Shown here one piece after another: positions 47,925-49,478 of a stretch of 64,000 nucleotides of DNA. The translations under genes and the position numbers were made by a program. Position 1 is the first letter of the stretch. The number at the start of each line of letters is the position of its first letter. Under the pieces are notes generated by a model. The model searched no databases. It had not been told where the DNA came from and saw only the letters and a list, made by a program, of their open reading frames with translations. This stretch comes from Eledone cirrhosa (Eukaryota): NCBI GenBank assembly GCA_964016885.1, contig OZ024745.1:76632001-76696000 (forward strand), given 5' to 3'.

Positions 47925-49473
47925 AAGTATGTACACGTACATACATATACGTATACAGACGTACAGTAGTATGTATATATATATATATATATACATACAT
48001 GCACACATATATATATGACAAAGGAACGCTGTACTAGTTTCAAGCTTATTAGCTATCGTCAGCAACGTATACCCTCCTGCCAGATTGTTGAACGTGTATA
48101 CTTACGCATATTAACGGCTGAGTAGCCCAATTTTCATATCGAGTGGGTTAATCGGCCGGTTGCACCGAAAACGATAAACGGAAAAAATGAAACAAAATTT
48201 CATTTCCCACTCTTAGTATGGCTGTTGCTTAAATATAAGTATGTACACGTACATACATATATGTATACAGACGTACAGTAGTATGTATATATATATATAC
48301 ATACATGCACACATATATATATATATGTACGTATGGATTCACCGAACATTTATTATAATGCTCGGTGTGTCAGTGTTGAACAAACGAGCAACGATGGTTG
48401 CTGGACACTACGGCTTAATACGGGATGTTTGTTTACAAACACACCAAGCATTATAATAAATGTTCGGTGAATCCATACGTACATATATATATATGTGTGC
48501 ATGTATGTATATATATACACATACTACTGTACGTCTGTATACATATATGTATGTACATGTACATACTTGTATTTAAGTAACAGCCGTACTAAGAGTGGCA
48601 AATGAAATTTTGTTTCATTTTTTCCGTTTATCGTTTTCCGTGCACCCGGCCGATTAACCCACACGATATGCAAATTGGGCTACTCAGCCGTCAATATGCG
48701 TAAGGTAAGTATATACGTTCAACAATCTGGCAGTAGGGTATACGTTGCTGACGATAGATAATAAGCTTGAAACTAGAACAGCGTTCCTTTGTCAGTGTTG
48801 AACAAACGAACAACGATGGTCGCTGGACACTACGGCTTAATACGGGATGTTTGTTTACAAACACACCGAGCATTATAATAAATGTTCGGTGAATCCATAC
48901 GTACATATATATATATGTGTGCATGTATGTATATATATATATACATACTACTGTACGTCTGTATACATATATGTATGTACGAGTACATACATGTATTTAA
49001 GCAACAGCCGTACTAAAAGTGGGAAATGAAATTTTGTTTCATCTTTTCCGTTTATCGTTTTCGGTACACCCGGCCGATTAACCCACTCGATATGCAAATT
49101 GGGCTACTCAGCCGTTAATATGCATAAGGTAAGTATATACGTTCAACAATCTGGCAGGAGGGTATACGTTGCTGACGATAGCTAATAAGCTTGAAACTAG
49201 TACAGCGTTCCTTTGTCAGTGTTGAACAAACGAGCAACGATGGTTGCTGGACACTACGGCTTAATACGGGATGTTTGTTTACAAACACACCGAGCATTAT
49301 AATAAATGTTCGGTGAATCCATACGTACATATATATATATGTGTGTGCATGTATGTATATATATACACATACTACTGTACGTCTGTATACATATATGTAT
49401 GTACATGTACATACTTGTATTTAAGTAACAGCCGTACTAAGAGTGGCAAATGAAATTTTGTTTCATTTTTTCC

Positions 49474-49478
<5 letters not shown>
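47925..49478. repeat. Tandem array of ~424-bp HHR units (plus, 48369-49478, ~2.6 units) preceded by an inverted block (47925-48368)
   Basis: Unit starts GTCAGTGTTGAAC at 48369, 48791 and 49215; HHRs at 48026-48068 (-), 48742-48784 (+, site mutated to GAA) and 49166-49208 (+). Confidence 0.92.

What the first reader, a model, noticed from the sequence alone, without database searches (positions are those of the whole stretch)
48369..49478. Candidate retrozyme: tandem ~424-nt highly structured non-coding monomers with one hammerhead per unit
Seen: head-to-tail units (spacing 422 and 424 bp) with HHR ACGTTG-CTGACGA-TAGCTAATAAGCTT-GAAA-CTAG-TA-CAGCGT and no credible ORF. The rest of the unit is a chain of hairpins (TGTTTGT/ACAAACA, CACCGAGCAT/ATGTTCGGTG, AAATGAAA/TTTCATTT, TA-centred palindromes). 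Established: metazoan non-LTR retrozymes are tandem monomers of a few hundred nt with type I HHRs that yield circular RNAs and are thought to use PLE machinery. Inference: this is such a family, possibly undescribed in this lineage, with an atypical U-U at the base of helix II. The 48742 copy has GAA at the cleavage site, so this particular array may be partly dead.
Basis: partly seen in the sequence, partly recalled or inferred. Interest (0 to 1): 0.9.

Follow-up and report, generated by a model that had tools for sequence, protein, structure and literature searches.

The report
Ribozyme repeat with Penelope-type insertion footprints
This is one aged copy of a very abundant 424-base non-coding repeat that carries a predicted self-cutting RNA motif and whose insertions show the end pattern of Penelope-like jumping genes, and it likely spreads when their enzyme copies a likely circular RNA of the repeat several times round.

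Summary
Observation confirmed, but the element is larger than reported. It spans about 47921-49478: an inverted arm joined head-to-head to the 2.6-unit direct arm, with (TA)n on both sides. It belongs to a family with 23,085 exact hammerhead matches genome-wide (with sister A2), arrays of up to 54 units, and a more distant sister family B. Hammerhead helices I and II covary across the families. The U·U at the base of helix II is family-wide and has a published, active precedent (axolotl HHR_Amex2). Insertions carry the Penelope-like (PLE) signature: 93 of 107 arms end at two fixed sites about 56 nt apart, nearly always in (TA)n, and inverted pairs use one site per arm (27 of 29). No PLE reading frame lies upstream of any of 48 non-inverted arms, and no partner was found among five PLE families. 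5' ends show no excess at the cleavage site, and one family-B insertion has 18 identical units over both arms. That fits rolling-circle reverse transcription of a circle, but an uncleaved multimeric RNA is not excluded. Cleavage and circles are untested. Verdict: a new non-LTR retrozyme family, useful as a test case for how animal retrozymes move.

The parts
47891..47920 (.). (TA)n target tract at the 3' end of the inverted arm
   Evidence: Sequence
47921..48370 (-). Inverted arm: unit positions u83-424, then u1-16, a deletion of about u17-128, then u129-218; ends at the first fixed 3' site. u1 = first base after the cleavage site
48026..48068 (-). Hammerhead of the inverted arm, intact core, GUA triplet
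48368..48778 (+). Direct arm unit U1 (u12-424); 3-nt overlap with the inverted arm at the head-to-head junction
48742..48784 (+). Hammerhead with GAA at the cleavage triplet and a broken helix II pair; predicted inactive
   Evidence: family has U16.1 in 234 of 240
48779..49202 (+). Complete 424-nt monomer U2, cleavage site to cleavage site; the two family 3' end sites fall near 48999 (u~221) and 49055 (u277)
49166..49208 (+). Type I hammerhead, family-typical form (U·U at helix II base, palindromic helix III, GUA); helix I extends into a long stem about 49141-49227
49203..49478 (+). Unit U3 (u1-277), ends at the second fixed 3' site; 1 difference from U1 in 263 nt
49479..49510 (.). (TA)n target tract at the 3' end of the direct arm
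17401..18536 (.). Second insertion of the family: head-to-head arms of about 1.3 units each, hammerheads at 17699 (-) and 18289 (+), ends near u272 and u~212-221
4519..4759 (.). Third, short head-to-head insertion without hammerhead; ends at u277 and u~212-221

Best explanation
This is an aged insertion of an abundant non-coding tandem repeat with one predicted type I hammerhead ribozyme per 424-nt unit, whose copies end at two fixed internal sites inside (TA)n tracts, and which is likely copied in trans by a Penelope-like (PLE) reverse transcriptase-endonuclease from a likely circular RNA monomer. Shown: unit, hammerhead anatomy and covariation, copy number, arrays, two fixed 3' ends, one end per arm in head-to-head insertions, (TA)n targets, evenly spread 5' ends, no coding body upstream. 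Inferred steps: (1) arrays are transcribed as multimers; (2) pairs of hammerheads cut them through the palindromic helix III, and a host ligase closes monomers into circles; (3) a PLE protein cuts both strands of a (TA)n tract and primes one cDNA at u~221 and the other at u277; (4) each cDNA runs round the template until it stops at random, and the two are joined head-to-head; (5) the inserted units then age and are reshuffled at DNA level, which accounts for the damaged 48742 hammerhead, the deletion in the inverted arm and U1 being almost equal to U3.
For: Copy number: 23,085 exact matches to the 34-nt A/A2 hammerhead pattern, control 0; 7 family-A insertions in 79 unselected 10-kb stretches, about 27,000 genome-wide (95% interval 11,000-55,000). 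Pure head-to-tail arrays of 17-54 units. Hammerhead helices across 14 A/A2/B sequences: 95.9% of cells paired, 9 of 21 pairs with two-sided change, slid controls 34-50%. 3' ends: 93 of 107 A arms at two sites (48 and 45), 90 of 93 followed by (TA)n; of 38 inverted pairs (A, A2, B), 27 use one site each, 2 use the first twice, 0 the second twice, 9 have an unclassified end (27 of 29, p = 1.6e-6). This matches two RT start sites and cleavage of both strands of AT-rich DNA shown for an Anolis PLE (PMC11167929) and the 'tail' on one inverted pLTR (PMC3846280). Autonomous PLEs in this genome show the same two-end, (TA)n pattern. No run-off at the cleavage site: 1 of 116 5' ends within 10 nt (5.5 expected), and only 12 true starts at u1 among 18 genome-wide pattern matches, about what even truncation gives (my hand estimate). 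One template for both arms: a B insertion has 18 of 18 full units identical, 6 on one arm and 12 on the other; an A insertion of 2.35 + 7.5 units has 5 variable columns among 7 full units; the window element shares a rare variant (u215 G, roughly 4% elsewhere) in 4 of 5 passes on both arms. An RNA run holds the unit in 29 of 29 bins.
Against: No cleavage, circle or monomer-length RNA was observed; only contigs were available. An uncleaved multimeric transcript from a homogeneous array predicts the same ends and the same lack of run-off, and for the Anolis PLE uncleaved RNA is the main substrate. Other young arrays have mosaic or periodic shared variants, and 3 of 15 multi-unit arms are period-2, so DNA-level amplification certainly adds to array length. 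Perfect identity of 18 units could be partly an assembly effect (not checked). The partner PLE was not identified: no similarity (best E 0.11) to the 3' regions of five PLE families. Rough contig depth of the unit in the RNA run is low relative to two other repeats, though the tool says contig depth is not a level. Covariation rests on few independent lineages (essentially A versus B), and the shuffle control for number of covarying pairs was not significant (59 of 500).
Confidence: 0.58

Rival explanations
1. Same family and same PLE machinery, but the template is an uncleaved linear multimer transcribed from arrays. The hammerhead is weak or irrelevant to movement, and long arrays grow mainly by unequal crossing-over after insertion.
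For: Uncleaved RNA is the dominant substrate for the Anolis PLE and hammerhead mutants insert normally (PMC11167929). 8 of 9 Xenopus retrozyme dimers did not cleave in vitro, and that preprint favours local amplification (10.64898/2026.07.22.740005). Periodic and mosaic variants in arrays. U·U weakens helix II. Mild cluster of 5' ends at u39-58 (14 of 116, corrected p about 0.025, not fully independent) could mark a transcript start.
Against: Both arms of one B insertion are long (about 7 and 13 units) and identical, which needs either two separate expansions or a template at least 6 kb long and perfectly uniform. The catalytic core and helices are kept by compensatory change across families only 63-66% alike.
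Confidence: 0.3
2. The unit is the terminal repeat (pLTR) of an autonomous PLE not yet found, and these are its truncated ends, as earlier agents concluded for similar candidates in other genomes.
For: Architecture is that of PLE insertions. Retrozymes are proposed to derive from pLTRs. My PLE survey covered five families only and the genome holds many more (tens of thousands of candidates).
Against: Upstream of the unit lies more unit, up to 54 times. 0 of 48 non-inverted arms have a PLE frame within 1.2 kb upstream (6 queries). 33 non-inverted A arms share no common upstream junction, apart from two duplicated arrays. 5' ends are spread over the whole unit. The hammerhead has the long helix I and loop 2 of canonical retrozyme hammerheads, not the minimal PLE form.
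Confidence: 0.08
3. It is a satellite or palindromic repeat spread by DNA-level processes or by a LINE, and the hammerhead is a chance or dead relic.
For: Old arrays behave as satellites with higher-order repeats. No Rfam hammerhead hit for family A.
Against: Two fixed 3' ends used one per arm, (TA)n targeting, no poly(A) tail, random 5' ends; conserved core and covarying helices; HH9 match of family B.
Confidence: 0.04

Closest known systems
Metazoan non-LTR retrozymes (Cervera and de la Peña 2020, PMC7229834): coral, mussel, axolotl Rtz_353 with HHR_Amex2
   Same: Tandem non-coding units of a few hundred nt, low GC, one canonical type I hammerhead per unit with short palindromic helix III, dimers to long arrays, thousands of copies, coexisting PLEs. 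U·U at the base of helix II as in HHR_Amex2.
   Different: Different sequence. Units of 424-474 nt are at or above the 150-450 bp range given there. Here the insertions show two fixed internal 3' ends, head-to-head arms and (TA)n targets, which the parts of that paper I read do not describe. Circles and cleavage are shown there and untested here.
Endonuclease-bearing Penelope-like elements: Poseidon of Anolis (PMC11167929), Adineta Penelope (PMC3846280), Naiad/Chlamys and their non-autonomous forms such as MRC1 (PMC8557442)
   Same: Two RT start sites giving a 'tail' on one arm, inverted 5'-truncated arm, partial tandems, microsatellite targets, ends downstream of the hammerhead rather than at it.
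   Different: No reading frame. Tail about 56-70 nt rather than 30-40. Ends lie 221 and 277 nt after the cleavage site. No sequence link to any of five PLE families tested.
Xenopus retrozymes as pLTR derivatives (bioRxiv 10.64898/2026.07.22.740005)
   Same: Monomers, dimers and long arrays; proposed non-autonomous partners of PLEs.
   Different: There 24 of 57 families match known elements, nearly all PLE ends; here no pLTR match was found. That study sampled vertebrates, three insects and one coral, and explains arrays by local amplification, whereas some arrays here look ready-made at insertion.

Membership tests
Non-LTR retrozyme | Short head-to-tail tandem units of a few hundred bp, low GC, dimers to long arrays | tested here: met
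   424-nt unit; arrays of 17-54 units
Non-LTR retrozyme | One type I hammerhead per unit with conserved core and three helices | tested here: met
   Core conserved in 240 ungapped copies; covariation; sister B matches HH9 below gathering score; family A has no Rfam hit
Non-LTR retrozyme | No protein-coding capacity, no LTR organisation | tested here: met
   Longest ATG frames 60 and 71 aa; only low-complexity stop-to-stop frames of 101 aa; no internal domain between units. PBS/PPT not searched specifically
Non-LTR retrozyme | Highly self-paired monomer | tested here: met
   z = -5.7 linear and circular, 66% paired; A2 z = -7.4; B z = -12.4
Non-LTR retrozyme | Dispersed high copy number with signs of retrotransposition; coexisting autonomous PLEs | tested here: met
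   young PLE families with long open frames
Non-LTR retrozyme | Transcribed | tested here: inconclusive
   Run X4 is RNA (spliced GAPDH) and holds the unit in 29 of 29 bins; contigs give no strand, level or ends, and read-through from host transcripts would give the same
Non-LTR retrozyme | Self-cleavage in vitro and accumulation of linear and circular monomers | not testable with these tools
   Needs bench work or raw total-RNA reads
Non-LTR retrozyme | Target-site duplications larger than 4 bp when present | tested here: inconclusive
   Both ends lie in (TA)n, which hides any duplication
Autonomous PLE (unit as pLTR) | RT plus GIY-YIG frame attached upstream of the repeat at a fixed junction | tested here: not met
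   0 of 48 non-inverted arms; no shared upstream junction among 33; sample-based, six protein queries
PLE-mobilised element | Two alternative 3' ends (tail), one per arm of head-to-head insertions, AT-rich targets | tested here: met
   93 of 107 arms; 27 of 29 classified pairs; 90 of 93 in (TA)n
PLE-mobilised element | Sequence shared with the pLTR of an identified partner | tested here: not met
   No match to five families, best E 0.11; other families not surveyed

The most novel reading that the evidence does not exclude
These families are a genomic record of rolling-circle reverse transcription: a PLE enzyme primes on both strands of one (TA)n cut, starts at two fixed sites in a circular 424-474-nt ribozyme RNA, and goes round it up to 13 or more times per arm, so that multi-kilobase satellite arrays are born in a single insertion. 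The families have no recognisable PLE sequence, so they would be independent circular-RNA parasites that mimic the two-site start signal by structure.
Probability: 0.45. Interest if true: 0.75.

Novelty: new member of a known kind. Interest (0 to 1): 0.5.

Why it matters
How animal retrozymes move is open: the 2020 paper proposes tandem cDNA from circles by a LINE or PLE enzyme, and the 2026 preprint proposes pLTR origin followed by local amplification. This family gives sequence evidence that the enzyme is of PLE type, names the two start sites, and offers young insertions, intact PLE frames and a canonical sister ribozyme in one genome. That makes the circle-versus-linear question directly testable with an existing in vitro PLE assay. 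The three families together cover roughly 0.8% of the unselected sample, and family A is invisible to Rfam hammerhead models.

Tried and rejected
The look-up of sequencing runs: no RNA holder listed; I later showed one listed run to be RNA. The kind of runs X5 and X6 was not settled. A DNA search with the A2 unit returned nothing because common words are skipped. Partner search: Neptune-like N1 and N2, Poseidon-like P1 and families H1 and H2 (clade names are my reading of motifs, not a tree) share no sequence with the units. Co-mobilisation with N1: two junctions at the same AT-rich site of the N1 terminal repeat (A in L326, B in L061) first looked like template switches; in L326 the N1 copy is more diverged (82-90%) than the A copy (94.5%) and the end combination breaks the one-per-arm rule, so I read it as a later nested insertion. 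A narrow junction pattern found nothing and is uninformative. Dimer-circle idea for U1=U3 with a dead internal hammerhead: no other copy shares U1's private changes (best 96%), the inverted arm is as far from U1 and U2 as they are from each other, and the same holds at C1:49.58 Mb; later DNA exchange is simpler, though I leave the dimer circle about 20%. A splice-donor-like motif before the hammerhead is not kept in A2 or B, so no intron is claimed. No complete sense-strand Pol III A or B box; the promoter is unknown. My first structure string was misregistered in helix I and was replaced. Rfam microRNA hits on the TA hairpins are composition effects. Repbase and Dfam could not be searched, so the repeat may already have a library name. 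Supplements of the 2026 preprint were not seen.

Full report
Observation. The tandem repeat is there as described: 48368-49479, period 424, 2.6 copies, spacings 422 and 424. I number the unit from the first base after the cleavage site (u1 = 48779). The hammerhead at 49166-49208 has helix I of 6 bp extended by a long interrupted stem, the core CUGACGA, a U·U followed by 4 bp of helix II, GAA, a 2-bp helix III inside the palindrome ACUAGU, and GUA. The copy at 48742 has GAA and a broken helix II pair. The monomer folds far better than shuffles (z = -5.7; -3.9 without the TA hairpins) and codes for nothing credible.

The family. The window lies in a 3.0-Gb genome. An exact 34-nt hammerhead pattern matches 23,085 times with a control of 0; this counts family A and its 474-nt sister A2 (about 82% alike). 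In 79 unselected 10-kb stretches I found 7 A, 2 A2 and 3 B insertions, about 27,000 A insertions genome-wide (11,000-55,000). Pure arrays of 44, 46, 50, 54 and 17 units exist. A distant sister, B (about 469 nt, 63-66% alike), has a canonical G-C at the base of helix II; a relaxed pattern matches 9,494 times and all 100 listed matches are of B type. Contigs from two other organisms hold the hammerhead region with A2-type flanks.

Is the hammerhead real? In 240 ungapped copies (of 245 found; some loci overlap) the two U's are present in 238 and 240, and U16.1 in 234. Across 14 A, A2 and B sequences the helices are 95.9% paired, 9 of 21 pairs change on both sides, and slid controls give 34-50%. 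The contrasts are few, mainly A versus B, and the shuffle control for number of covarying pairs is not significant (59 of 500). Rfam does not detect family A but scores B against HH9 at E 1.2e-7, below the gathering score. The U·U has a precedent: axolotl HHR_Amex2 cleaves 22% in an hour as a monomer and much more as a dimer (PMC7229834, parts 2-4 of 6 and passages read). Palindromic helix III and dimeric folding are described in PMC4209133 (part 1 of 4 read).

How it inserts. Of 107 A arms not cut by a locus edge, 48 end at u196-224 (40 called at u221, where the alignment runs into TA) and 45 at u264-279 (36 at u277); 14 end elsewhere. 90 of the 93 run into (TA)n. A2 (16 of 18) and B (12 of 12) end at the equivalent two sites. 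Of 38 head-to-head pairs, 27 use one site per arm, 2 use the first site twice, none the second twice, and 9 have an unclassified end (p = 1.6e-6 for 27 of 29). This is the PLE tail signature: the Anolis PLE protein cuts both strands of AT-rich DNA and starts at two internal sites (PMC11167929, parts 1-2 of 4 read), and the tail sits on one of the inverted pLTRs (PMC3846280, passages; PMC8557442, passages and section 15). Coding PLE families in this genome also end at two sites in (TA)n. Most of my loci were chosen by similarity to, or presence of, the hammerhead junction; the 10 A arms from unselected stretches show the same ends in 9 cases.

Is it only a pLTR? Earlier AI notes on other genomes reduced similar candidates to truncated PLE ends (leads, not tested). 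Here, none of 48 non-inverted arms has a PLE frame within 1.2 kb upstream (six queries), 33 non-inverted A arms share no upstream junction except two duplicated arrays, and the units do not resemble the 3' regions of five PLE families (best E 0.11). The survey of PLE families is incomplete, so the partner is unknown and descent from a pLTR, as proposed for Xenopus (10.64898/2026.07.22.740005, parts 1-3 of 5 read, supplements not seen), is not excluded.

What is the template? A linear RNA cut by the ribozyme would make cDNA run off at u1. It does not: 1 of 116 5' ends lies within 10 nt of the site (5.5 expected), and genome-wide only 18 copies of u1-25 lack the normal two preceding bases, 12 of them true starts. 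By hand, the pattern catches about 45% of random flanks, giving about 27 starts among some 15,000 exact copies, close to the roughly 30 expected from one stop per 500 nt. So the template is a circle or an uncleaved multimer. For a circle: a B insertion has about 7 units on one arm and 13 on the other, proper ends, (TA)n flanks, and 18 of 18 full units identical; an A insertion of 2.35 + 7.5 units has 5 variable columns in 7 full units; units in one arm differ by 2.75% on average (59 pairs) against 6.2% between insertions (8,165 pairs, subfamily differences included; cross-arm 4.3% in 87 pairs, inflated by neighbours of other subfamilies). Against: other young arrays show mosaic or periodic shared variants, 3 of 15 multi-unit arms are period-2, old arrays have higher-order repeats, and uncleaved RNA is the main substrate of the Anolis PLE.

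This copy. U1, U2 and the inverted arm differ from each other by 3.0-4.8%, while U1 and U3 differ at 1 of 263 sites. Four of the five passes through u215, on both arms, share a G seen in 4 of 194 pattern matches elsewhere (about half of those are antisense readings of a palindrome, so roughly 4%). No other copy shares U1's private changes (best 96% among 40 scored of 1,802 candidates). The simplest history is one template, about 2% of ageing per unit, then a recent local exchange. The damaged 48742 hammerhead is therefore probably decay, and two intact-looking hammerheads remain.

Expression. Run X4 is RNA: it shows spliced GAPDH at depth 18,400 over introns at 6-10, whereas X1 is DNA. X4 holds the unit in 29 of 29 bins. 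Contigs give no strand, ends or level. The summed depth relative to X1 is far lower than for two other repeats in the control stretch, which is unreliable and would be expected if the library selected poly(A) RNA (library type not on record). Circles are neither shown nor excluded.

Verdict. A new family (with two sisters) of a known kind, the metazoan non-LTR retrozymes; I put membership at about 0.9 and the full circle-template mechanism at 0.58. Seven paper searches listed no description of it, but the library is partial and repeat databases were not searchable. Its value lies less in the ribozyme than in the insertion footprints, which point to PLE machinery and make the rolling-circle hypothesis testable.

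Noticed in passing
L279:2110-11365 (G000:C1:30.83 Mb); L277-L278; L281-L282: Sister family B (466-469 nt, canonical hammerhead) forms single head-to-head insertions of up to about 31 units between (TA)n tracts; one has 18 identical full units over both arms.
   Followed up: yes
L077:2900-8880; L317; L318: Sister family A2 (466-502 nt, same U·U hammerhead) in very young arrays; its flanks appear in contigs of two other organisms.
   Followed up: partly
L063:3971-7563; L033; L062-L065: Young Neptune-like PLE family with a 927-aa open frame that has no Pfam hit, a hammerhead with the U3-A8 core variant, and two 3' ends about 165 nt apart.
   Followed up: partly
L326:2083-2250; L061:6436-7410: Family A and family B copies each joined to the same AT-rich site in the terminal repeat of that Neptune-like family; possibly a preferred cut site.
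   Followed up: partly
window 39520-39800: Short head-to-head palindromic insertion with a hammerhead-like motif on each strand (39581 -, 39727 +); a different family, also seen in L036.
   Followed up: no
window 38396-39433: 3' end of a PLE (GIY-YIG-like frame, minimal hammerhead near 39197, end in (TA)n), related to the family of L118-L137.
   Followed up: partly
window 20099-21306 (-); 23685-25740 (+): Two more PLE remnants: RT plus GIY-YIG (Pfam hits) and a Neptune-like endonuclease end; both belong to young, abundant families.
   Followed up: partly
window 4890 (+), 32920 (-); L101, L105, L115, L142, L150, L154, L156: Further hammerhead-like motifs of other families, several with a palindromic (AU)n helix III.
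   Followed up: no
window 26718-26789 (-) and 26956-27027 (+): Two nearly identical tRNA-like sequences in inverted orientation; possibly a tRNA-derived repeat with an inverted insertion.
   Followed up: no
window 52514-59527: A non-LTR element of L1/Tx1 type (by recalled motifs: zinc knuckle, endonuclease, RT; 53564-58818) sits between two stretches of a 70-71-bp tandem repeat, suggesting targeting of that repeat.
   Followed up: no
window 8663-12147 and 12457-15950 (-): Two broken non-LTR elements with RT and restriction-like endonuclease motifs (R2/NeSL-like, recalled).
   Followed up: no
window 23026-23535 (+): Mariner/Tc1-like transposase remnant (recalled motifs).
   Followed up: no
L066 and L072 (G000:C28:43.97 and 44.44 Mb): Two long family-A arrays share their 5' start and 600 bp of flank at 99.5%, in opposite orientation: a segmental duplication.
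   Followed up: partly
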